The notes beneath the pieces were generated by a model, which was not told where the DNA came from, did not search any database, and saw nothing but the letters and a program-made list of their open reading frames with translations. A stretch of DNA of 63,481 bases, counting the filler, from Diploschistes diacapsis (lineage: Eukaryota), in the NCBI GenBank assembly GCA_023645945.1. It is 25 parts of 25 records of this genome, joined end to end, with 100 filler letters (N's around TTAATTAATTAA, not from the genome) between each part and the next. Parts side by side here need not be neighbours in the genome. Positions count along the whole stretch, not along the records: positions 60,188 to 61,784 come from JALAIB010002835.1; 24 more parts are not named here. One strand, given 5' to 3'. Below, one piece after another: positions 9,502 through 63,043 of this stretch; the stretch's first letter is position 1; the number at the start of each line of letters is the position of its first letter. Made by a program: the position numbers and the translations under genes.

Positions 9502-10209
9502 GTTTGAGGCGATCGAGAATGAAGATCTCGATACATCTTAACGGTAATTCCGTTAAACTCGATGTTTTATCTTTAACGGATATTATTATAACATCTACGT
9601 CGACGTCGAATTCATTAACGACGGCTATCTCGCCGCTAACTTATAAAAACATAATGAAATCAGTTCATTATATTATTAAATTTATAGTTTCATTTAATAA
9701 AAGTTCCGGATTTAGTTTTAAAGGTTATCGCTACGTCATCGTCTCCGTTCGTCTAAATTTGAATGGAAATACGCATCGATTCTATTTCGATAATAAATAC
9801 ACGATATCATTCATAAATAAAAAATTCCTACAGAAATATAAGCTTAAGGCGAAGGTACTTACGATACCGATTCCGATGAAGATTATTAACGTTAGAAAAA
9901 ACAAGCATTCGGTTTTGAACTTTATCGTATTAAACATGTTTTTCCCGATCGACGAAAGACGAATTACGCAGATTTAGAAAGAGTTATATATCGTAAATAA
10001 TCTACGAGTAAACGTGTTTATTAATATCGATATATTATATTTAAAATAATTTATTATCGATTTTTAAAAATAAATTACAATTATCGAGAATTACGCCGAT
10101 TTAGAGATTCCGATTTCAATTATAACGTAAAAGAAGATTACGGTTATAATATTTTTTCAAAATATATTTATAATACTTTCGAGGTCGGTTATTTTAGTGC
10201 CTATTATTG
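9502..10209 (+). pseudogene. Gypsy aspartic protease region remnant
   Basis: FYFDNKYTISFINKKFL (degenerate LDTG-type) and YIVNNLRVNVFINIDIL motifs. Confidence 0.55.
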
Positions 10210-23533: not shown

Positions 23534-26500
23534 ATGGTATCTGCCAGGTCGCTGGGAATCTCAACGCCATTGGCACTTCAATATCTTGTTGCTGAAGGTA
23601 TATTACCACCAGATCCTGCCACGACGGAGTATTCCTGGCACCGTGCGACAGACCAGCCTGTACCAGAAAGCGCTTCTGCTGATGAGCTGGTCGTTACGAG
23701 GCATTGTGTTGTCTGGTCGAAGTATAACACCATATGCCGCGTCCTCAACTTTGAAGTCGAGAACGAACCCGTGACGAGTGCGTTATTTGTGACGTTCCCT
23801 CGAGATGCCGCAGACAGGTTGGATGCTGGTGATACTAGCAGTAATCGCCATGGCTCGCCTGCCTTTGCAGACGCCGATAGACTACTCAACGCCAGGAAGA
23901 GACCCGGCTTGAAGGGTGGTAGTAAGGTACATGAAGCGTCAGCCAAACCCCGTCAAGCAACAAAGGAGCCCATGGCGTCGGAGTTCGAAAGTCAAGCCAA
24001 CGGCCGGGCACTCGTGGTCCTTCTCAAGACCCAAGCGCATGTATGCTTTGTCTCGGGCTCCACTCATGTTGTCAACCTGCCCTTTGAGTCGGCTGGTGCT
24101 TTCGCCACTCCTTTTGGGTTGGTAATACAGCGGGATGTGACCCCTAAGGACAATGCCATTTCATTTCAGATGCCACCAAAGACGCCCGCAAACTCTTTCT
24201 CTGTCTCTCTCCTAGATTCTTTCCAATCTGTATCTAACCTGAAGACCATAGATGGTTTGCAAGACGAATCTCCTCTCTTGACGTCAATGTTCAGATCTTT
24301 ACTCACTTCCACCCGGCGACCAAGTCATACTAAACATCCACACCATGTATATCTTCGGGATCCCTTGACCGAGATGGGTGTGGTTAGGGAAGTAGAAGAG
24401 AACGATGCGTCAACACTGAGTAGGGTCGGGACCAGATTCTCAAATCCATCTCAGCTGCCGGCCGCTGAGAGGGTTGTCTACGTTTCTCCGTATAGCGAGC
24501 TTAGTGAAATGGTAGGTGACTCGAGCTTGTTGCTTGCCCTCAGCTGGAACGCGAGTATATGCCAATATACACTTTGGAAGGTTGTCGAGACCTCCACCGG
24601 GCTCGCCGATAAAAGTAGGAGACGTACGCGAATAAGTAGTGGCACTTCTACTGCACGGAGGCAAAGCTCCCATGGGGCCGGAACAGGGGCAAACACCCCG
24701 GCCTTGAGAGCCTCAATTAACCCGCGAGATAGCTTTGCGTCTTTTCAAGATGTCCAAGGCGATCACTTCCCTCGGAATGACACCGAGCTTGCAAGCCAAC
24801 TAGACCCAGCGTTCGAAAACCCATCTACTACGGCAAAATCATCTAGACGGATAAGCTCGCTGCTTTCACGGACGGATCCAATCGTCACGTCGGATGCCGC
24901 CAGCTTTGCAGACCCTAACCTTGGGCATAGTTTAGGGATGGGTCCACGGCGAGGTCCATCGTTTGGTTCTGGGATCCCGCGGACAAGTTTTGGACATTCT
25001 GGTTCACTCCAAAGCAGACAGCCTAACATAAGCAAAAATGGTCATGCTAATGAGGATAACTCAAGCCAGCATTCAAGTGACACGGAGATGGCCGATAGTT
25101 ACAAAGAGGGAAGTAGTCTGAAGGAAAAAAGAAGGCTCCAAAGCCTCGAACGTGATGTCGCGTTCGTGAGGATTTATTCTTTCGATCCCTCGATGCTTGA
25201 ATCACAGGGTCGAGCCCCCCCTGCATTAGATATCAAGCAAATATCATTTTTCACTATTGAGCCTTCATCAAGCGACCCACAACGTTATAAAGAGTTGACC
25301 GCATGTATCTTCAACCGCAGTACGAAACGCCTTATCGTCATGCCTTTGATGATATCGTTAACGTCGGTGCACAACCCAGGCTCTTTACCACAAGGGAGGG
25401 AAGGTGGGCAGATTCGTGTGAAGCTTCCCCAGATGGCGACCAACGTGATGAGCGTCTGCAAAATCAGAGACGGCTATCGACCTCGTATCATCATGCTGAC
25501 CGAGTCAGAGGACGGCTACGGAACCCTGGTGCTACAATCGCCTGGAAACTTACCTATACCTGTACATTTGCCACCGAAGCTTCTCATACGCAATCCATTC
25601 GATTGTGGTCAAAAAGCTCTTCAGGCGAAGAAGCGAGATGGCGGCCTTAAGAGGGTCCTTAGTGACGGGCTTGATCGCTTGTGCAGTCTACGGCCTTCGG
25701 CGGTTCCGAATCAATTTGATATTCAAGACTCCAAAGGCACCTGGCACTGTCTTGAGATCGACCTATCACCAACCAATAACTTTGTTGCGAAGGCACTCGA
25801 TGTCTGTCGGTTTGTGCTACCGCAGAGTCCAGGTGAACGCGATCCCATTCTGAGGGCGTGGTATGAAACCAAGCGCTGGTTGTTCGAGCATTATGGCGAC
25901 ATTGCGAACCTGGAATGGGCTGCATTCGTCGTTACTCTCTTCTCGATGTTCTCGGTCTACCTCCGTGATCGCTCACGTCAAAGCGCCGTTCGAAGCGGGA
26001 GAAAGACTGGTCTGCTTCGATCTAGCAGTGGCGCTAATATAGATACGGAGAGTTTCGACGCGATGATGCTTTGTGAGGACAAGCTTGGGACGAAAACGCC
26101 TCATTGGTTGGCCGGTAGCAGCTGGGGGTGGACCATGGAGAACTTCTCGAAGGCAGCAGCGGCTAGCACAGAGAAAACACCTCGGTCCTCCTTTCCAAAG
26201 AAGATTGCCTTTCTTCCGGAATGCTTGGGTTACGCCAAGGAGTTTCTTCTCACCGATGCTGGAAAGGCGGCGGTTGGTGAAGACGGCTTTCTGCTAGCTA
26301 CAAAAGCCTCCCATGCTAGTGAGGCCCAGTCTTCTTTCCCGATGCTTCTGGTTGCGCTTCACTTGCTTAGAGAGGAGAGCAAACTTGATGTCTTGTGCTC
26401 CGAATTCGTTCATTCATTGACTCCAATCCTTGCTCAAATCGGCGGCTGGCTCGGGTGCGAAGAGTGGAGCTGGAAAGATTCCTCGTTTTATAGCTATGAA

Positions 26501-29428
26501 AGTGCAGATTTGGAGCGTTGGATATTTGAAAAGCTATCAATAGAGCCATTAACTGTTGCGAAACCTCAGGGGCCACCCCCCTCAATCTTAGAATATGTGG
26601 AAGCAGTTTTCAATGGAGAGTCCAACAAGTCATTTCCTACCTTACTAGATGTGACTCGATCGAATGACCCAGCGTCGGTACAACGTGTCAAGGAGCTCAC
26701 TCCCAGGACCAAAATGCTTCGGGAGCTACTTGATCTCCGGCGTACTTCGCCCTCCGAATTTGTCAGTCGGTTACTGCGCTTGGACTGGAGTCTTCCGATG
26801 ATCGAGTCCTTTCCAGAAGGTGTCGTTGCTCCGCTAAGGTCGGAAATAGTCTCCTGCCAGGCAGAGCCATCTTTGAAGCTCTCGCCAGCTGCTCTGGCAC
26901 TAATCGACCGTCACGACATAGCGATGCTCATACAGCGTAATCAGATCCAGAAACCGCACAGCCGACCCGCCGAAACGCCTTATCATGATGCATTGAGGGA
27001 TTACCATGCCATCTGCAACTCCGCGTTGGAACATGATCAATTAGGATCATACGATGGCTCCGCAGAAATGGATAGGCAAGCCGTGACGCGTATGGTCTTC
27101 AAAGACGACCAAAGATTCTCCGAGGCGGCTAAACTACTACATCCGCTCAGACCAGCAGTTGCGCGATGTTTCCCAGAACCGGATTGGAGCGATACCGATC
27201 TTCTTGAGGCTCAGCAAGAATTAGCCAAGGTTATCGCTATACGTACCCTTTCCGTCTCCCCAGGTCGAGGAATGCTCTTCTACAGTGCACGGTTTCCACT
27301 CCTGACCGAAAAGTTCCCCATTCACGGCTTCACTCTAAGCTGCATCATGAAACCAGCCAATACGACTGTCACGGCTGACAAGAACTCCTATTCTGAAGAA
27401 AAGGTATCGTGGGCTTTCTTTCACGCCGGTGTAGAGGCTGGTTTGAGCATCTCCAAAAATGCAAAAGGACTTGATACGTCCTGGATATTGTTCAACAAGC
27501 CCCGTGAACTGGGCGACAGACATGCTGGATTCTTACTGGCCCTTGGCTTGAATGGCCACTTAAAGTCAATCGCGAAGTGGGTCGCTTTTAAGTATTTAAC
27601 TCCCAAGCATACGATGACTTCCATCGGACTGCTTCTCGGACTCGCGGCTTCGTATTTGGGAACGATGGATACGCTCATTACTCGACTGTTATCAGTTCAC
27701 GTTACAAGAATGCTCCCTCCTGGTGCGGCAGAGTTGAACCTTTCAGCTTTAACGCAAACGACAGGCATCATGGCTCTTGGCCTACTCTATTGTAATACTC
27801 AGCACCGTCGCATAAGCGAAGTAATGCTCTCCGAAATGGAGAATGTGGAGCAAGATGAGTACACCAACCCTTTGGAGAATCTAAGGGGCGAAGGATACCG
27901 GCTAGCGGCAGGGTTCGCCCTTGGCTATATCAACCTTGGCCAAGGAAAGAACTTGAAGGGACTACACGATATGCGCATCGTCGAACGACTGCTCGCGCTT
28001 GCTGTTGCAACGAAGAAAGTCGATCTGGTTCACATTCTGGACAAGGCTACGGCAGCTGCGGCCATTGCAATAGCGCTGGTCTTCCTCAAGACGGAAGACG
28101 CTGCCCTCGCAAAGAAGATTGATGTCCCGGATACGATCCACCAATTCGAATACGTGCGGCCCGACATTTTTCTCCTGAGGACGGTGGCAAGGCATTTGAT
28201 CATGTGGAAAGGCATCACCCCGACAGTGGTATGGATGCAGAAACAGCTTCCTGTTCCTCTAAGAAGGAGAGTCAGGCTGAAACATATTCGTGCGCTCCAT
28301 ACCGGGGATTTGCCACTATACAATATCATCGCCGGACTTTGCCTGAGCATTGGGCTAAGATTTGCTGGCAGTGCAAGACAAGATGTGCGAGATCTTCTTG
28401 GACTCTACCTCAACCAATTCATGCGGATCAGCCGTCTTCCGGCGCTTCACTACGACGGCAGGCTCACACGAATGACCACTAGAAACTGCCAAGATACGGT
28501 GGCTCTTGCGGCAGCATCCGTCATGGCTGGCACTGGAGATATCTATCTGCTGCGTCGCTTCAGAGCGCTCCATGGCAGATCGGACCCGGAAACCCCATAT
28601 GGTAGCCATCTTGCAGCTCATCAGGCCATAGGTGCTTTGTTCTTGGGTGGAGGAACACACACATTCAATACTTCCAATATCGCAGTCGCATCGCTTCTTT
28701 GCGCGTTCTATCCACTGTTTCCTACTAACGTGCAGGATAGCAGGTCGCATCTTCAGGCTTTCCGGCATTTCTGGGTCTTTGCGGCAGAGCCTCGCTGCAT
28801 GATCGTGCGCAGCACAGAGACTCAAAAGCCGCTGTCCATTCCAATCATCGTCACCATGCGCTCCGGAGAGGAGTTCAATTCTACAGCCCCATGCTTACTT
28901 CCAGAGCTGGAGAGAATAGCAAAGGTTCACTCCAACGACCCTCAATACTGGCGCGTCACGCTGGACTTTGCGAGCAGTCCCGATCAGCTGGCGGCCTTCA
29001 AAAGGCACCAAAGCATGTTCGTGCGCCGGCGTGGGCCCTACGATGCCAGCTCGACTGTCTTCGCAGCAACCATGCAGGCGCTCAACGACAAGCAGATGGC
29101 GAACCAGATGAGCATGCAGGCCTTTGAGTGGGTCTTCAACCTGCCGTCCTTTGCTTCGTTCGATCGAGCCGAAAGGATGCTCGTCTTGCCCGCGGAGACC
29201 TCGACGATCCTGCATCTAGCGCATAGGACAACAGTGGTGGATGATAGACTTTCACTGGAGCGCGAGTGTGTTGCGAGTGGCAAGGCGGAAAGGCTGTGGA
29301 ACTTAAGGGTGCTCTTCGCATGGGCCGAGCGGACGCAGAGGGAGGGGGGGCAGATGGCTTGGCTAGGGAAGGACGTGGTCGAGGCGTTGAGGGCAAAGAT
29401 CGGTCTAGTGTGGCGGAAGGACTCTTGA
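23534..29428 (+). CDS. APC1: Anaphase-promoting complex subunit 1 (APC1/BimE), intronless, 1964 aa
   Basis: First ATG at 23534; PC-repeat motifs FHAGVEAGL, HAGFLLALGLNGHL, YGSHLAAHQAIGALFLGGG, HLQAFRHFWV. Confidence 0.96.
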   Translation: MVSARSLGISTPLALQYLVAEGILPPDPATTEYSWHRATDQPVPESASADELVVTRHCVVWSKYNTICRVLNFEVENEPVTSALFVTFPRDAADRLDAGDTSSNRHGSPAFADADRLLNARKRPGLKGGSKVHEASAKPRQATKEPMASEFESQANGRALVVLLKTQAHVCFVSGSTHVVNLPFESAGAFATPFGLVIQRDVTPKDNAISFQMPPKTPANSFSVSLLDSFQSVSNLKTIDGLQDESPLLTSMFRSLLTSTRRPSHTKHPHHVYLRDPLTEMGVVREVEENDASTLSRVGTRFSNPSQLPAAERVVYVSPYSELSEMVGDSSLLLALSWNASICQYTLWKVVETSTGLADKSRRRTRISSGTSTARRQSSHGAGTGANTPALRASINPRDSFASFQDVQGDHFPRNDTELASQLDPAFENPSTTAKSSRRISSLLSRTDPIVTSDAASFADPNLGHSLGMGPRRGPSFGSGIPRTSFGHSGSLQSRQPNISKNGHANEDNSSQHSSDTEMADSYKEGSSLKEKRRLQSLERDVAFVRIYSFDPSMLESQGRAPPALDIKQISFFTIEPSSSDPQRYKELTACIFNRSTKRLIVMPLMISLTSVHNPGSLPQGREGGQIRVKLPQMATNVMSVCKIRDGYRPRIIMLTESEDGYGTLVLQSPGNLPIPVHLPPKLLIRNPFDCGQKALQAKKRDGGLKRVLSDGLDRLCSLRPSAVPNQFDIQDSKGTWHCLEIDLSPTNNFVAKALDVCRFVLPQSPGERDPILRAWYETKRWLFEHYGDIANLEWAAFVVTLFSMFSVYLRDRSRQSAVRSGRKTGLLRSSSGANIDTESFDAMMLCEDKLGTKTPHWLAGSSWGWTMENFSKAAAASTEKTPRSSFPKKIAFLPECLGYAKEFLLTDAGKAAVGEDGFLLATKASHASEAQSSFPMLLVALHLLREESKLDVLCSEFVHSLTPILAQIGGWLGCEEWSWKDSSFYSYESADLERWIFEKLSIEPLTVAKPQGPPPSILEYVEAVFNGESNKSFPTLLDVTRSNDPASVQRVKELTPRTKMLRELLDLRRTSPSEFVSRLLRLDWSLPMIESFPEGVVAPLRSEIVSCQAEPSLKLSPAALALIDRHDIAMLIQRNQIQKPHSRPAETPYHDALRDYHAICNSALEHDQLGSYDGSAEMDRQAVTRMVFKDDQRFSEAAKLLHPLRPAVARCFPEPDWSDTDLLEAQQELAKVIAIRTLSVSPGRGMLFYSARFPLLTEKFPIHGFTLSCIMKPANTTVTADKNSYSEEKVSWAFFHAGVEAGLSISKNAKGLDTSWILFNKPRELGDRHAGFLLALGLNGHLKSIAKWVAFKYLTPKHTMTSIGLLLGLAASYLGTMDTLITRLLSVHVTRMLPPGAAELNLSALTQTTGIMALGLLYCNTQHRRISEVMLSEMENVEQDEYTNPLENLRGEGYRLAAGFALGYINLGQGKNLKGLHDMRIVERLLALAVATKKVDLVHILDKATAAAAIAIALVFLKTEDAALAKKIDVPDTIHQFEYVRPDIFLLRTVARHLIMWKGITPTVVWMQKQLPVPLRRRVRLKHIRALHTGDLPLYNIIAGLCLSIGLRFAGSARQDVRDLLGLYLNQFMRISRLPALHYDGRLTRMTTRNCQDTVALAAASVMAGTGDIYLLRRFRALHGRSDPETPYGSHLAAHQAIGALFLGGGTHTFNTSNIAVASLLCAFYPLFPTNVQDSRSHLQAFRHFWVFAAEPRCMIVRSTETQKPLSIPIIVTMRSGEEFNSTAPCLLPELERIAKVHSNDPQYWRVTLDFASSPDQLAAFKRHQSMFVRRRGPYDASSTVFAATMQALNDKQMANQMSMQAFEWVFNLPSFASFDRAERMLVLPAETSTILHLAHRTTVVDDRLSLERECVASGKAERLWNLRVLFAWAERTQREGGQMAWLGKDVVEALRAKIGLVWRKDS

Positions 29429-30046: not shown

Positions 30047-31795
30047 ATGGCCTCCCACAGCGGCGGGGTGAAGGGCGCAGCCCAACCCCTCAACGTCGAA
30101 CAGATCGTCCAAGAAGCCAAGAACTTCGATTATAACCCGCATATTCCTCTCAAATACTGGCTTCGAACGGCGGCGACGCTACTGAGAGAGGCGAGTCCCC
30201 ATTTCTCCTCACACTACGCTCTGCTCTAATTCACCGCAGGCAGAGATCTATGAAGGCGAAGGCAACCAGCAGCAGACCTACCTCTTGCTGTTCCGGCATG
30301 CCGAGCTCGTCATAAACCATCTTGCTACTCATGCAGATGCGGCCTCCCAAGAGAACAAAGCGGGCCTTCTGCAAGCTGAGAAGGATGTCGGCACCAGTCT
30401 GACGAAGCTCGACCGACTGAAGCCACAGATAAACCAGAGGTACGAGCGTTACGAGAAATTGGCTCACAAGCGGGCGGCTGAGGGCGCTGGCAGTGGCCCT
30501 CGCCATGCGCCAAGTGTATCTAGGCGAGAATGGAGGTTTTCAGACCGCGGTAGAAGGTCATCTATCGATCCAGCTGGGATACAATCAATTGCGGCAGATG
30601 AAAACAAAGACCTGGCGGTCAAACTCGCACGCTCAGAGATCAAGAGGAGAGCAGTTGCCAGGAAAGCTACTAGACAGGCCGGTATATCTGAGGAGGTCGA
30701 GCAGGAGAGGCGCACAGCGGGGCTTTGGGGTAACTGGGAAGAGGCCTTCACAAACGATGAGACGGACATGGATCGGGATACTCTGAGCCGGCAGATGCAG
30801 AACGTCAGAATGGAGATCGACGGCAAGAAGGACCGCGCGGGTATCACGCGGCGCGAGTCAAGACCCAGACAGCCAGTTCCACGCCCCCAATACAGCTATC
30901 CCACGGTCCCCGTCAAAAACCAACATCATGACGGCGTCGCCAACTCTCTCCTAGACCAGCGCCAACGTCCATTTAGTTTCGTCGAGTCCGACCAAGGACC
31001 CCCTACACCGCCACCAAAAGACATGTCATCGAGCAGAGCAGCGCCACCCAAACCTGCCAAAACCCCCTTCTCGGACGTGGAACTTGCCACAGTCAGAGAC
31101 CCCAGTCCGGCCTCGGATCTCAAACCGTCAGGCTTCACCTTCAAGCCGTCGGCCTTCCTCGAGAACGGATCTCCCCTCCGCACAATATTCCTACCTCCCG
31201 AGCTCCGGCACAAGTTCGTCACTATCGCCGAATCCAACACGCGCAAGAATCTCGAAACATGCGGCATCCTCTGCGGCACGCTAATCTCGAACGCACTGTT
31301 CATCTCAAAGCTTGTGATTCCAGAACAGAGGAGCACGTCGGACACGTGCGAGATGGTGAACGAGAACAGGCTCTTCGACCACGTGGACGGCGAGGATCTG
31401 ATGGTGCTGGGATGGATACACACGCATCCGACGCAGACGTGCTTCATGAGCAGCAGAGACTTGCACACGCATTGCGGGTACCAAGTCATGATGCCCGAGA
31501 GCATCGCGATCGTATGTGCACCAACGAAGAACCCGGAGTAAGTTTCAAGTGTCCCTCAACGCTACTCTCCATGCGGATGTAGAAACGACCATGGCTGACA
31601 TGTTTCTGTCGTAGATGGGGCGTCTTCCGTCTCACCGACCCGCCAGGAATGCCCTCTGTGCTCAACTGCACGCAGACCGGCCTTTTCCATCCGCATGCCG
31701 AAACAAACATCTACACCGACGCGTTACGACCGGGCCACGTCTTTGAAGCAAAGGGGTTGGAGTTCGACGTCTATGACATGCGACCCGGTATGTGA
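30047..31795 (+). CDS. AMSH/STAMBP-like JAMM metallo-deubiquitinase (Sst2-like), 540 aa (exons 30047-30190, 30240-31537, 31615-31795)
   Basis: N-terminal MIT/USP8-like region; JAMM motifs NLETCGILCG and GWIHTHPTQTCFMSSRDLHTH; C-terminal FRLTDPPG...FHPH; 1623 nt in frame. Confidence 0.93.
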
Positions 31796-57954: not shown

Positions 57955-58389
57955 TAGGCTGGCCGTCACTGACACTGACAGTGTCAGTGTCCGTGTTTTA
58001 GATTTTTTAGCTGCGGTGTCCGTGTCCGTAGATTCACGGAAGTGCAGTATCCGTATTAGTATCAATATTTTAAATTTTTTAATTATAGTGTTCGTGTCCG
58101 TGGATTTACGGAAATATAATGTCCGTGTTAGTATCCATGTTTAAAAATTTTTAATTGCGATATCCGTATCCGTGTCTTTATCGTAATATAGTGTCCGTGT
58201 CCGTCTCCGTATTTAAAAAAAATTTTAAAATAAAAACGTGAAAAATAAACGTGATAATTTTAAAAATATTAAAAAAAAAGTATTTTCGTGCTTTTACTGC
58301 AGTATAATGTCCGTGTTAGTAAATTTATAGAAATATAGTGTCCGTATTAATATCCGTGTTTTAAATTTTTTAATTGCGGTGTCCGTGTT
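57955..58389. mobile_element. hAT-like non-autonomous element, partial
   Basis: Starts TAGGCTGGCCGTCAC as at 62404; TGTCCGTG repeat array. Confidence 0.75.
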
Positions 58390-60087: not shown

Positions 60088-60758
60088 NNNNNNNNNNNNN
60101 NNNNNNNNNNNNNNNNNNNNNNNNNNNNNNNTTAATTAATTAANNNNNNNNNNNNNNNNNNNNNNNNNNNNNNNNNNNNNNNNNNNNGCTAGATAAGAGA
60201 GGCAGATGTAGGTTAGGAAAAAAAGATTAATAATGTTTTAAACTATTAGAATTTATAAGAATAAAAAGATGATCTTAAAAGAAAGGTTAGTCATCTTAAG
60301 GAAACTTTCTAGCGCTAGCGTCGTCGACGTTAACGATTAGGTATAATTAAATGAATTTATAGGGTCAAATATAGCTACTATTCGATCTATAAGGCTTTCA
60401 ATTAATTACTTTTGGAGATATTTTATTTTGAATATTTATTATTGTAGTTTTGTTATTGTATCACGTGTTCGGTTCCTAGGGTCTGTTCGGGTACTAGGGT
60501 CACGATTCTATAGGACTTTCGATAGTATCTAGAACCTTCGGGTCTAACTAATTGCTTGGTTAGAAACAAATCCATTTAGATTAATAATCTGACAGAACTA
60601 ATATTCATAAATACAGGCCTTTTGAATTCAACATTGTGCAGATATGCAATTGAAATTGGCATAAGGCTTATAAACGAATCTAATACGAAAAATGAGTGTA
60701 GATGGTAATGAATCAAAATAAAAAGTAAGTTGTGTATAATAAATATTAAGCGCCATGT

Positions 60759-61151
60759 TCATTGCGATACCGCCCCGCGACATTCAATGCGGCAGCGAGG
60801 GCAGGAATATTTGATAGAGCCGGAATTAGTGGCGGAACTGCGTCTGTGTTGATGGCAGAGATTGCGGCAATTCGGACAAATGGGCATCAAACGGCGCTGT
60901 AATGGGGAAATATTGTTAATAGTTTCATCGCCGTTCCGCGGTGCGATATCATAAAAAAAATCCTCGTTTCGAGCTGATAAATGATTGTGTCCGATATGAT
61001 TTAAGAAAGGAGGATTAGCTTCGACTTCAGGGTAAGCGTTACGGACGTAAAGATGGCGGGGTATATATTGTGTATATGTAGTAATAGGATAAAAGAGAAT
61101 TAATAAGATCAACCTAAATATGGTCGATAGAAGATTGAATGAATAAAACAT
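60759..61151 (-). CDS. Small secreted Cys-rich prepropeptide (130 aa), effector-like
   Basis: Intact ATG-TGA ORF; hydrophobic N-terminus; repeated xxxRN pro-region; RR site; 6-Cys C-terminal peptide. Confidence 0.7.
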   Translation of the reverse strand: MFYSFNLLSTIFRLILLILFYPITTYTQYIPRHLYVRNAYPEVEANPPFLNHIGHNHLSARNEDFFYDIAPRNGDETINNISPLQRRLMPICPNCRNLCHQHRRSSATNSGSIKYSCPRCRIECRGAVSQ

Positions 61152-61521
61152 TCTTAATAAAAGTAGATTGACTGATTTTGGTTATGTTAAAAAGTGGAAG
61201 AGGGGTAGCCAAATAGGTAATAATGGTTAGGGGAATATCTGTTGAGTATAATAATAATGTATTATTATTGTGGGAGGTAGTGAAATAAAGATAAAGATAA
61301 CGCTAGTAAAGGTAAGAGGTGAGAGGTCTTTTATAGACATATTTTACCTAACTAACGTCTAATGATTAATATACATTTAATCTCCCATAATGTTGGATTC
61401 ATAATCCAACATTATACGCCTCATAATCCAACATAATAGTGAATCTAATTTATCCAACAAAGTGGATTTAATTAGCCTAAATATTGGATCCATGGTTTTA
61501 ATATTATTAGATTATTAATCT

Positions 61522-61737
61522 TGTTGAGCAGACAGGCAGAAGGCATGGCTGGGAGTTCGACTGAATTCTAGAACGAGGTTCAGTTCAGCTGAACCTTCTG
61601 GAATTCCGACTAGACCGATTTAGAACTAATGCAGGTAGTAAGGCTTAGCGTATCACACAAGGATAAAAGTCTATAAAGTAGGATAGTTTCCTAGATAAAA
61701 CCTCTAAACTTCAATATATCCATTACGTTGCCAAACA
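61522..61737 (+). mobile_element. Solo LTR of family D with 5-bp TSD AATCT
   Basis: AATCT|TGTTGAGC...GCCAAACA|AATCT. Confidence 0.9.
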
Positions 61738-62403
61738 AATCTAATATTTAGATTAATGATTAAATGATCTAGACTATTTATAATNNNNNNNNNNNNNNNN
61801 NNNNNNNNNNNNNNNNNNNNNNNNNNNNTTAATTAATTAANNNNNNNNNNNNNNNNNNNNNNNNNNNNNNNNNNNNNNNNNNNNATAAATATTGTATTCG
61901 AAATAGAATTTTACTGTTATAATGATTTCATTTATCGTTAATAGATACGATTTTAATTATATTGTTCCTCCGTTATATATACCGACCGGACATTCTATTA
62001 TCAAATAATCGTACAAAAGATAATAATTCTAAGTTATCATAATATTATACCGTTTTACCTACGATACTAATACGGATGAGCTACGATAAAGAAAATACTT
62101 TCTTTTTAATAAAATCGTCCGTTATATATAAAGTATGTAATTAAATCGAGTAGCTTTTCCGTAAATAAAACATCGATAAATTTTCGCCTCGTGATATGTT
62201 TTACGAATGCTCGTGGGATAAATAAGTATTTTATTATTAATTTTTTTTAAATAAATAACGCTTTAGTTGACTAACGATAGACCTACGGTATTCAACCGTC
62301 ATTCTCGCCTTTCGGGTGTTTTGGCTCAGGCACATCAAGGGCTAACAATACTGTATCTAAGTCTTTTTAATTAAATAACGCTTTTATTAACCTGCGATAG
62401 ACC

Positions 62404-63043
62404 TAGGCTGGCCGTCACGGACACTAATACGGCCGTGTCCGTGGCACGGACACGGCCGTGGCAGTATCCGTGTTTTGAAATTTTTAGCCGTAATGTCCGT
62501 GTCCGTGCTTTTACTATAGTATAATGTCCGTAGAAGTATCCGTGTTCTAAAAATTTTAATCGTAATATCCGTGTTCGTATTTTTACTGTAGTATAATGTC
62601 CGTGAAAGTCTCCGTGTTTTAAAATTTTTAATCGTAATATTCGTATTAATGGATTTATTATCGTATCCGTGCATTTATCGAAACATTTTTAAGTAATATT
62701 TATTTTTTAATAGTTTTAAAATTATTACGTTTATTTTTCACGTTTTTATCTTTTTATCGTAATATTTCGGTAAATTCACGATTATATTTCGATAAATTTA
62801 TTATAATATAATATCCGTGGTAATATCGTGTTTTAAAAATTATAACGGTAATATCCGTAGAAATGTCCGTGTTTTAAAATTTTTAGTCGTAATATTCGTG
62901 TCCGTGCTTTTATTGTAGTGTAGTGTCCGTGGAAGTATCCGTGTTTTAAAATTTTAACGGTAGTGTCCGTGGCAGTGTTGTGTTTTAAAAAATTTCTCGG
63001 TAGTTGTCCGTGGAAGTGTCCGTGGCACGAAACGGCCAGCCTA
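62404..63043. mobile_element. Complete non-autonomous hAT-type element (640 bp)
   Basis: 12-bp TIR TAGGCTGGCCGT/ACGGCCAGCCTA; perfect 8-bp TSD GATAGACC; interior made of TGTCCGTG repeats. Confidence 0.92.

What the first reader, a model, noticed from the sequence alone, without database searches (positions are those of the whole stretch)
60759..61151. Intact effector/toxin-like prepropeptide gene in the repeat compartment, apparently being reshaped by RIP leakage
Seen: the only non-TE-looking intact ORF in the small contigs, between a DNA transposon end and a solo LTR. It has a hydrophobic leader, three pro-repeats (LYVRN, LSARN, IAPRN), LQRR, then a 43-aa basic peptide CPNCRNLC...CPRCRIEC. 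Known: LxAR/KR pro-domains are Kex2-processed in fungal secreted peptides, and effectors often lie in RIP-affected AT-rich blocks. Inference: YVRNAYPEVEAN reverts by transitions alone to YARDAYPEAEAD, a Kex2/Ste13-style spacer, so RIP has changed the pro-region while the Cys core stayed intact. The two CxxC pairs could bind zinc or form disulfides.
Basis: partly seen in the sequence, partly recalled or inferred. Interest (0 to 1): 0.7.

Follow-up and report, generated by a model that had tools for sequence, protein, structure and literature searches.

The report
Orphan secreted peptide gene, lichen fungus
This is a real gene for a small secreted cysteine-rich peptide in a fungus from a lichen; it is wedged between mobile elements and looks like the more mutated, possibly fading copy of a two-gene family, a familiar situation in fungi although the peptide itself has no known relatives.

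Summary
The ORF is real: 60759-61151 (minus strand), 130 aa, single copy, matched base for base over 60481-61110 by a contig of a lichen-metagenome run. It has one paralogue in the genome (42% identical) sharing the leader, four LxxR sites and all six cysteines; no outside homologue was found. The pro-region belongs to a class of LxxR-D repeat pro-domains with many members in this genome. Selection sparing the Cys core is not shown: distance from the repeat explains it equally well. New point: a Copia-type LTR begins 33 bp upstream of the ATG, where the paralogue has its own leader and TATA box, so this copy may be silenced or LTR-driven. It matches no transposon zinc-finger pattern tested. 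Best reading: a Kex2-processed prepro-peptide releasing a 43-aa cationic six-Cys mini-protein, zinc ribbon somewhat likelier than three disulfides; expression, fold and activity are unshown. This is a new member of a known kind. The bolder lead is a set of secreted zinc-finger-like payloads in a lichen fungus.

The parts
60759..61151 (-). Intronless ORF, 130-aa prepro-peptide
   Evidence: paralogue G000:C1252 42% identical; run contig identical over 60481-61110
61071..61151 (-). Predicted signal peptide (codons 1-27); most AT-rich part (GC 0.25 vs 0.40 in paralogue); -3/-1 positions Thr/Thr vs Ala/Ala in paralogue
   Evidence: cleavage site inferred from alignment, SignalP not available
60891..61070 (-). 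Pro-domain (codons 28-87) with LxxR-type sites at R37, R61, R72 and dibasic RR at R87; conserved motif blocks, divergent linkers
   Evidence: blocks 14 of 18 and 13 of 21 identical; linkers 2 of 11 and 4 of 10
60762..60890 (-). Predicted mature peptide, 43 aa, net +6, six Cys as Cx2Cx3C-x17-Cx2Cx3C; internal RR at 103-104
   Evidence: six of six Cys aligned with paralogue
60595..61184 (.). 590-bp single-copy island holding the gene
   Evidence: no full match elsewhere in the genome; flat depth 30.6 against hundreds to tens of thousands on the flanking repeats
61185..61784 (-). LTR of an abundant family (TG...CA, about 510-550 bp, 5-bp target duplications), same sense as the gene, 3' end 33 bp upstream of the ATG; cut by the contig end; no primer-binding site next to the gene
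   Evidence: Ty1/Copia label rests on a recalled primer-binding motif seen beside two other copies
61327..61335 (-). TATA-like TATAAAAGA inside the LTR, 184 bp upstream of the ATG (paralogue has the same 9-mer at -151 in its own unique DNA)
61522..61737 (.). 216-bp solo LTR of another family nested in the upstream LTR, target duplication AATCT
60511..60594 (-). 84-bp terminal fragment of a second LTR of the same family (other subtype by eye), 164 bp downstream of the stop codon
60188..60510 (.). End of a TA-flanked terminal-inverted-repeat DNA transposon inserted in the downstream LTR
   Evidence: 13 of 13 copies shown end at the same point followed by TA; one 1.6-kb copy has both inverted ends; 35 matches at E<=1e-60 among 40 scored

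Best explanation
A genuine gene of a two-member orphan family in a lichen-associated ascomycete, encoding a Kex2-processed pro-domain (K2PP-type) precursor. Inferred route: the leader takes it into the ER and is cut after residue 27; Golgi Kex2 cuts after R37, R61, R72 and R87, with Ste13-type trimming of the XA/XP spacer; a 43-aa cationic six-Cys mini-protein is secreted and acts on neighbours in the thallus (bacteria, other fungi or the photobiont). I put the fold at about 55% zinc ribbon (C92/C95/C117/C120 as ligands, C99 and C124 possibly paired) and 45% three disulfides. This copy has taken more C>T/G>A change than its paralogue, strongest next to an LTR that inserted 33 bp before the ATG, and is about as likely to be fading as fully active. 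Shown: sequence, paralogy, motif conservation, flank anatomy, mutation bias. Inferred: secretion, processing, fold, target, present activity.
For: Paralogue keeps start position, no gaps over codons 1-87, four LxxR-type sites and 6 of 6 Cys; dN/dS 0.39 and 0.28 in the two motif blocks, 0.52 over codons 1-87; 40 identical residues against 33.6 expected from permuted substitutions, P=0.028. Aliphatic P4 with Arg P1 fits the extended Kex2 motif (PMC8528282); XA/XP runs are the Ste13 signature (PMC6339444). The same pro-repeat vocabulary occurs at 21 of 70 loci examined for one pattern and once in 63.6 kb of evenly picked contigs. Transitions: 49 C/G-to-T/A towards this copy, 17 towards the paralogue, p=1e-4; small contigs have CpA o/e 0.50 against 1.09 in the gene-rich contig. 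Sub-threshold Pfam hits of both tails are mostly zinc-binding domains (IBR E=0.081, zinc ribbons E=0.07-2).
Against: No signal-peptide predictor, peptidomics or assay. All family and fold hits are below cut-off; AlphaFold2 models are weak (pLDDT 55.7 and 64.1) and the tail model is helix plus hairpin, not a ribbon. The transition excess is not CpA-specific (CpA 11 of 24, CpC 12 of 34, CpG 10 of 40, CpT 15 of 31), the ORF's TpA/ApT stays at 0.31-0.86, and with two sequences the direction is unrooted. Non-synonymous C/G sites changed towards this copy as often as synonymous ones (29 of 83 vs 19 of 43, p=0.34), so recent purifying selection is not detected; an open frame over 87 codons would survive by chance in 9.6% of permutations. 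An internal RR at 103-104 could split the tail.
Confidence: 0.55

Rival explanations
1. This copy is a young pseudogene: the LTR insertion cut the ORF off from its promoter and RIP-like mutation is eroding it; only the paralogue works.
For: LTR end 33 bp from the ATG, inside a leader that aligns with the paralogue's; polyadenylation-like AATACA inside the LTR at -112; 11 of 20 non-synonymous and 6 of 12 synonymous C/G sites changed in the leader, Ala to Thr at both -3 and -1, Gly to Arg at 13; Ste13 spacer interrupted at position 43.
Against: No stop or frameshift in 130 codons, five stop-prone codons and six Cys codons intact; the LTR supplies a TATA-like box in the right sense with no ATG between it and the ORF; genes in RIP-affected blocks are often expressed in Leptosphaeria (PMC3105345).
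Confidence: 0.4
2. The mature part is a disulfide-stabilised, defensin-like cationic antimicrobial peptide that binds no metal.
For: Even number of conserved Cys in a secreted peptide, net charge +6 and +5; model is helix plus hairpin and its top structural neighbours include AtLURE1.2 (Z 3.0, rmsd 3.8, 35 aligned) and mytilin (Z 2.4, rmsd 4.2, 33 aligned).
Against: Those Z values are far below the chance range the tool states (7-8); neither paralogue has the CxC motif of the cysteine-stabilised alpha-beta fold, and gamma-core-like matches fall at non-equivalent positions.
Confidence: 0.3
3. LTR promoter takeover: the copy is expressed from the inserted LTR, with new regulation.
For: LTR in the same sense as the gene; TATAAAAGA at -184 against -151 in the paralogue; no upstream ATG after it.
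Against: The LTR is itself mutated (78-83% to the closest copies), interrupted by a nested LTR and in AT-rich DNA; no transcript evidence.
Confidence: 0.15
4. The ORF is transposon-derived: a TE zinc-finger fragment, or cargo of an LTR-gene-LTR element.
For: LTRs of one family flank it in direct orientation; the paralogue also has this LTR family about 660 bp downstream.
Against: Single copy; no gag CCHC or C2H2 pattern; no primer-binding site or polypurine tract beside the gene, the two LTRs look like different subtypes, and the leader aligns with the paralogue's up to the junction.
Confidence: 0.04

Closest known systems
K2PP effectors (Kex2-processed pro-domain; SnTox3, ToxA, SIX1/4/6), PMC8528282
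   Same: Signal peptide, N-terminal pro-domain, LxxR or dibasic site before a compact Cys-containing mature part.
   Different: Several tandem LxxR-D repeats rather than one pro-domain; 32-43 aa payload; lichen-associated host; cleavage and activity untested; no sequence similarity found.
Magnaporthe oryzae AVR-Pii / ZiF effectors (10.1101/2023.10.18.562914), AVR-Pi9 and MoHTR1/2 (PMC11901910)
   Same: Small secreted proteins with a zinc-finger payload (AVR-Pii, MoHTR1/2) or six Cys with two LxAR-like motifs (AVR-Pi9).
   Different: The ZiF ligand spacing Cx2Cx12HxC is absent from both paralogues; this is at most an analogy of design.
Small secreted proteins in RIP-affected AT blocks of Leptosphaeria maculans (PMC3105345)
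   Same: Orphan Cys-rich secreted gene among degenerate TEs, AT-shifted, RIP leakage proposed.
   Different: Here a paralogue exists and gives the direction; the ORF's TpA/ApT is low; an LTR sits in the leader; symbiotic rather than pathogenic setting.
KEX2-processed repeat proteins with STE13 signature (PMC6339444)
   Same: Repeated Kex2 sites, one followed by XA/XP dipeptides in the paralogue.
   Different: The repeats are spacers in front of one C-terminal payload, not repeated identical cores.
AFP / BP / NFAP2 antifungal proteins (PMC13525654, abstract only)
   Same: Small, cysteine-stabilised, secreted fungal proteins.
   Different: No Pfam, PDB sequence or fold hit to them; Cys spacing differs (spacing of those families recalled).

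Membership tests
K2PP effector | N-terminal signal peptide | tested here: inconclusive
   Hydropathy peak 3.0 at residues 11-19 and helix in the model; paralogue has an AxA site, this copy TxT; no SignalP
K2PP effector | Pro-domain ending in KR/RR or LxxR | tested here: met
   LQRR at 84-87 here, LQAR in the paralogue; three more sites conserved
K2PP effector | Pro-domain removed by Kex2 in vivo or in vitro | not testable with these tools
   needs peptidomics or a Kex2 assay
K2PP effector | Effect on a host or partner | not testable with these tools
   no assay possible
ZiF (AVR-Pii) effectors | Cys-x2-Cys-x12-His-x-Cys zinc site | tested here: not met
   pattern absent in both paralogues (ligands)
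C4 zinc ribbon | Two Cys knuckles joined by a hairpin, one zinc bound | tested here: inconclusive
   Knuckle spacing present in both; Pfam hits below cut-off; low-confidence model not a ribbon; no significant fold match
Cysteine-stabilised alpha-beta defensins | CxxxC on a helix bonded to CxC on a strand | tested here: not met
   CxxxC present, CxC absent in both paralogues; motif definition recalled
KEPs (KEX2-processed repeat proteins) | Repeated near-identical peptide cores between Kex2 sites | tested here: not met
   Segments between sites differ in length and sequence; single Cys payload
TE-encoded zinc finger (gag CCHC, C2H2) | Cx2Cx4Hx4C or C2H2 pattern within a multicopy element | tested here: not met
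   No pattern; single-copy island
RIP leakage | C:G to T:A excess in unique DNA next to a repeat | tested here: met
   49 vs 17, p=1e-4; GC rises from 0.26 next to the LTR to 0.52 at 315 bp; unrooted
RIP leakage | CpA context preference matching the genome's repeats | tested here: inconclusive
   Repeats are CpA-depleted (o/e 0.50) but the gene's changes are spread over all four contexts; pro-region CA+TG 14 against 22 expected

The most novel reading that the evidence does not exclude
This lichen fungus secretes a modular repertoire in which a shared LxxR-D repeat pro-domain delivers many different zinc-binding mini-proteins (this C4-ribbon-like pair, a C2H2-like plus CxxC-CxxC payload on G000:C904, a CxxxxH-CxxxxH payload on G000:C3837), kept beside transposons and turned over by RIP and LTR insertion: a symbiotic counterpart of the blast fungus's zinc-finger effectors, aimed at the photobiont or the thallus microbiome.
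Probability: 0.2. Interest if true: 0.65.

Novelty: new member of a known kind. Interest (0 to 1): 0.35.

Why it matters
Lichen fungi are thought to use effector-like secreted proteins on their partners (10.1101/2024.08.16.608140, passages seen), and my two searches for this class in lichens found no paper. The gene pair gives two short, synthesisable natural peptides to test, and a paired example of how an LTR insertion and RIP-like mutation act on a secreted-peptide gene in a symbiont, a process described mainly in plant pathogens. Alone it is one orphan gene that may be fading. The larger value is the pro-repeat class, whose motif could be used to mine lichen genomes for small payloads that gene callers miss or miscall (the database holds the paralogue only with a wrong, longer start).

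Tried and rejected
Homologue searches: no hit for the ORF in the 5.8-billion set; only the paralogue's N-extended gene call in the 1.84-billion set and with the two-sequence profile; 0 of 129 pattern matches confirmed in metagenome contigs; no usable Atlas hit for either protein. The third own-genome hit (C1082, E=0.13) is an off-frame match inside another gene. PDB sequence searches gave only chance-level matches (best E=0.0076 summed over six repeats of a designed zinc-finger protein, none significant alone). Fold searches: nothing at E<=0.001 or Z>=5; no family is excluded by this. Expression: no RNA holder listed. The displaced native promoter was not found. The LTR-cargo idea was tested and rejected (no primer-binding site or purine tract beside the gene). 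The LY[AV]RD pattern is not enriched genome-wide (90 matches, 96 in the reversed control); class members were picked by context, by eye. Identity values for the downstream LTR fragment were spoiled by an alignment artefact, so its subtype is by eye; the context count on LTR copies in the same call was uninformative. Earlier scan notes: none. Literature searches with no hit: lichen + Kex2 + mycobiont; lichen-forming fungi + small secreted + cysteine-rich + transposable elements.

Full report
Observation. The window is a string of contigs joined by N spacers; the finding lies on a 1597-bp contig (60188-61784 = G000:C2041). The ORF is on the minus strand at 60759-61151 and encodes 130 aa with the leader, three repeats, LQRR and 43-aa basic tail described. 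2 of 2000 dinucleotide shuffles of the 590-bp unique island gave so long an ORF. A contig of run X1, labelled lichen metagenome, matches 60481-61110 without a difference at flat depth 30.6, while the flanking repeats reach hundreds to tens of thousands; X1 may be the source sample, so this confirms the assembly rather than adding a second occurrence. A housekeeping gene of the window has its best relatives in unnamed assemblies (75-81%) and one named hit in a lichen-forming ascomycete (59%). The host is therefore most likely a lichen-forming or lichen-associated ascomycete; the taxon is not fixed.

Paralogue. The genome holds one clear relative, G000:C1252 (119 aa, E=4e-21, 42% identical), and the reciprocal search finds only this pair. 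The two align without gaps over codons 1-87 and share all six cysteines: Cx2Cx3C-x17-Cx2Cx3C here, Cx4Cx3C-x10-Cx2Cx3C there, each with an aromatic residue two before the fourth Cys. Identity is concentrated around the Arg sites (14 of 18 and 13 of 21) and low in the linkers (2 of 11, 4 of 10); dN/dS is 0.39 and 0.28 in those blocks and 0.52 over codons 1-87; 40 identical residues exceed the permutation mean of 33.6 (P=0.028). So the family has been under selection as a protein. Outside the genome nothing was found; the single database hit is the paralogue called with a longer start.

Pro-domain. Both proteins have aliphatic-x-x-Arg at 37, 61, 72 and 87, which fits the extended Kex2 motif (PMC8528282, first third of the text read). 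In the paralogue the first site is followed by four XA/XP dipeptides, the STE13 signature (PMC6339444, passages); here the run stops after two. This vocabulary is common in the genome. The pattern LY[AV]RD gave 90 matches against 96 in the control, so the count alone means nothing; I examined 70 loci covering 77 of the 90 matches (13 not fetched) and judged 21 by eye to be acidic pro-repeat proteins, 8 of them with a hydrophobic N-terminus in the same frame. One more turned up in 63.6 kb of evenly picked contigs. After Arg, Asp stands in 48 of 69 sites and Asn in 2; removing the one Asp per locus forced by the pattern leaves 27 of 48. Most of the members with a visible start lie in GC-balanced DNA, so the class is not confined to the repeat compartment.

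Mutation bias. Over codons 1-87, 49 differences are C/G in the paralogue and T/A here, 17 the reverse (p=1e-4), with 31 transversions. GC is 0.25/0.42/0.53 in leader/pro/tail against 0.40/0.54/0.61. Twelve amino-acid differences are explained wholly by such changes towards this copy, three towards the paralogue. The 24 small contigs show RIP-type depletion (CpA o/e 0.50, gene-rich contig 1.09), but the gene's changes are spread over all contexts (11 of 24, 12 of 34, 10 of 40, 15 of 31), its TpA/ApT is below 0.9 everywhere, and two sequences give no root. RIP leakage (PMC3105345, passages) is the best label, not a proven one. GC climbs with distance from the upstream LTR (0.26 to 0.52 at 315 bp), and in the tail CA/TG is undepleted even without the Cys codons (14 against 15.7 expected), so distance explains the intact core as well as selection does. 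Non-synonymous C/G sites changed towards this copy at 29 of 83, synonymous at 19 of 43 (p=0.34); the reverse direction gives 11 of 64 and 6 of 29, so the test is weak, but it shows no recent selection.

Flanks. Downstream, the contig begins with the end of a DNA transposon: 13 of 13 copies shown stop at one point followed by TA, and one 1.6-kb copy has both inverted ends. It sits in an 84-bp LTR fragment ending 164 bp from the stop codon. Upstream, another LTR of that family starts 33 bp from the ATG and runs to the contig end, interrupted by a 216-bp solo LTR with an AATCT duplication. Of 8 full-length candidates extracted, 3 have exact 5-bp target duplications and one a 4-of-5 match. Two other copies share internal sequence beginning with a motif I recall as a Ty1/Copia primer-binding site, which makes the LTR's sense that of the gene. 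Neither LTR next to the gene has such a site or a purine tract, they look like different subtypes, and the short leader aligns with the paralogue's up to the junction: two independent insertions, not captured cargo. The paralogue keeps about 250 bp of unique upstream DNA with TATAAAAGA at -151; here that region is displaced, and the LTR offers the same 9-mer at -184 with no ATG after it, but also an AATACA at -112. With Thr in place of Ala at both -3 and -1 of the predicted signal site, a silenced or fading copy is about as likely as an active one. No RNA data could be laid.

Mature peptide. Pfam gives only sub-threshold hits, mostly zinc-binding domains (IBR E=0.081 for the paralogue; zinc ribbons E=0.07-2 here). 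AlphaFold2 is weak (pLDDT 55.7 whole, 64.1 tail) and shows a helix plus hairpin; fold searches found nothing significant, the best being AtLURE1.2 at Z 3.0. Gag CCHC, C2H2, ZiF and CxC patterns are absent. The two knuckles with an aromatic before the second resemble zinc ribbons as I recall them; six conserved Cys in a secreted cationic peptide fit three disulfides. I put 55:45 on zinc. Two unrelated genes met by chance beside the same repeats add weight to zinc: G000:C904 has leader, four LxxR repeats, a predicted 46-bp intron and a payload with a C2H2-like motif and CxxC-x17-CxxC (Pfam best E=0.016, below cut-off), and G000:C3837 has the same design with two CxxxxH motifs after a predicted intron. 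Neither intron is verified.

Comparison. It works like a K2PP effector and resembles in design the blast-fungus proteins AVR-Pii (zinc finger; 10.1101/2023.10.18.562914, passages), AVR-Pi9 (six Cys, two LxAR-like motifs) and MoHTR1/2 (PMC11901910, passages), without being a member of ZiF. Effector-like secreted proteins are reported for Xanthoria parietina, and that text does not contain the word Kex2 (10.1101/2024.08.16.608140, passages and term counts; its supplements were not seen and may list such proteins). PMC13525654 was seen as abstract only. Two searches for this class in lichens returned no paper; the library lacks most subscription journals.

Verdict. Observation confirmed; interpretation partly supported. 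A new orphan member of a known kind, with a good paired signal of RIP-like erosion and an unnoticed LTR insertion at the start of the gene. Interest 0.35. The bolder reading, a repertoire of secreted zinc-finger mini-proteins in a lichen fungus, has probability about 0.2 and would merit 0.65.

Noticed in passing
L008 365-848 + (G000:C904:2177-2660): Leader, four LxxR repeats, predicted 46-bp GT-AG intron, then a C2H2-like motif and CxxC-x17-CxxC; between an LTR and the same DNA-transposon end; no paralogue of its first exon found.
   Followed up: partly
L036 minus strand from base 940 of the reverse complement (G000:C3837): Leader, LxxR-D/N/E repeats, KKRR, predicted intron and a payload with two CxxxxH motifs; an LTR of the same family ends 185 bp upstream of its ATG.
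   Followed up: partly
L032 1537-1800 + (G000:C1336): 88-aa secreted-looking ORF with LLVAR followed by a Cys-rich part, about 590 bp from a solo LTR; no Pfam hit.
   Followed up: partly
L122 minus strand (G000:C3801:1-1300): Pro-repeat protein with an XA-dipeptide run, LLQRR and a six-Cys C-terminal peptide of different spacing.
   Followed up: no
L050, L053, L064, L071, L099, L113, L114, L115, L130 and others: Large class of acidic LYARD-repeat precursor proteins with unrelated basic or low-complexity payloads, up to five motif copies per gene.
   Followed up: partly
L085 minus strand (G000:C1571): 82-aa ORF with leader and YTR/LSARD repeats much like the paralogue's pro-region, in AT-rich DNA, without a Cys payload in frame.
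   Followed up: no
window, 24 small contigs: Repeat DNA shows CpA o/e 0.50 with CpG o/e 2.05: strong RIP-type depletion that leaves CpG over-represented.
   Followed up: partly
window 9519-9977 +: 152-aa AT-rich ORF with weak retroviral aspartyl-protease hits (E=0.019, below cut-off): probably a degenerate retroelement piece.
   Followed up: partly
L018 440-1811 (G000:C35): Two copies of the LTR family in inverted orientation about 340 bp apart, one next to internal element sequence.
   Followed up: no
window 57973-58386 and 62450-62971: 72-bp tandem-unit repeat family inside an element with short terminal inverted repeats.
   Followed up: no
window 23534-29428 + and 30768-31541 +: Ordinary housekeeping genes on the gene-rich contig: an APC1-like protein (label recalled) and a STAM-binding-protein/JAB domain gene.
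   Followed up: partly
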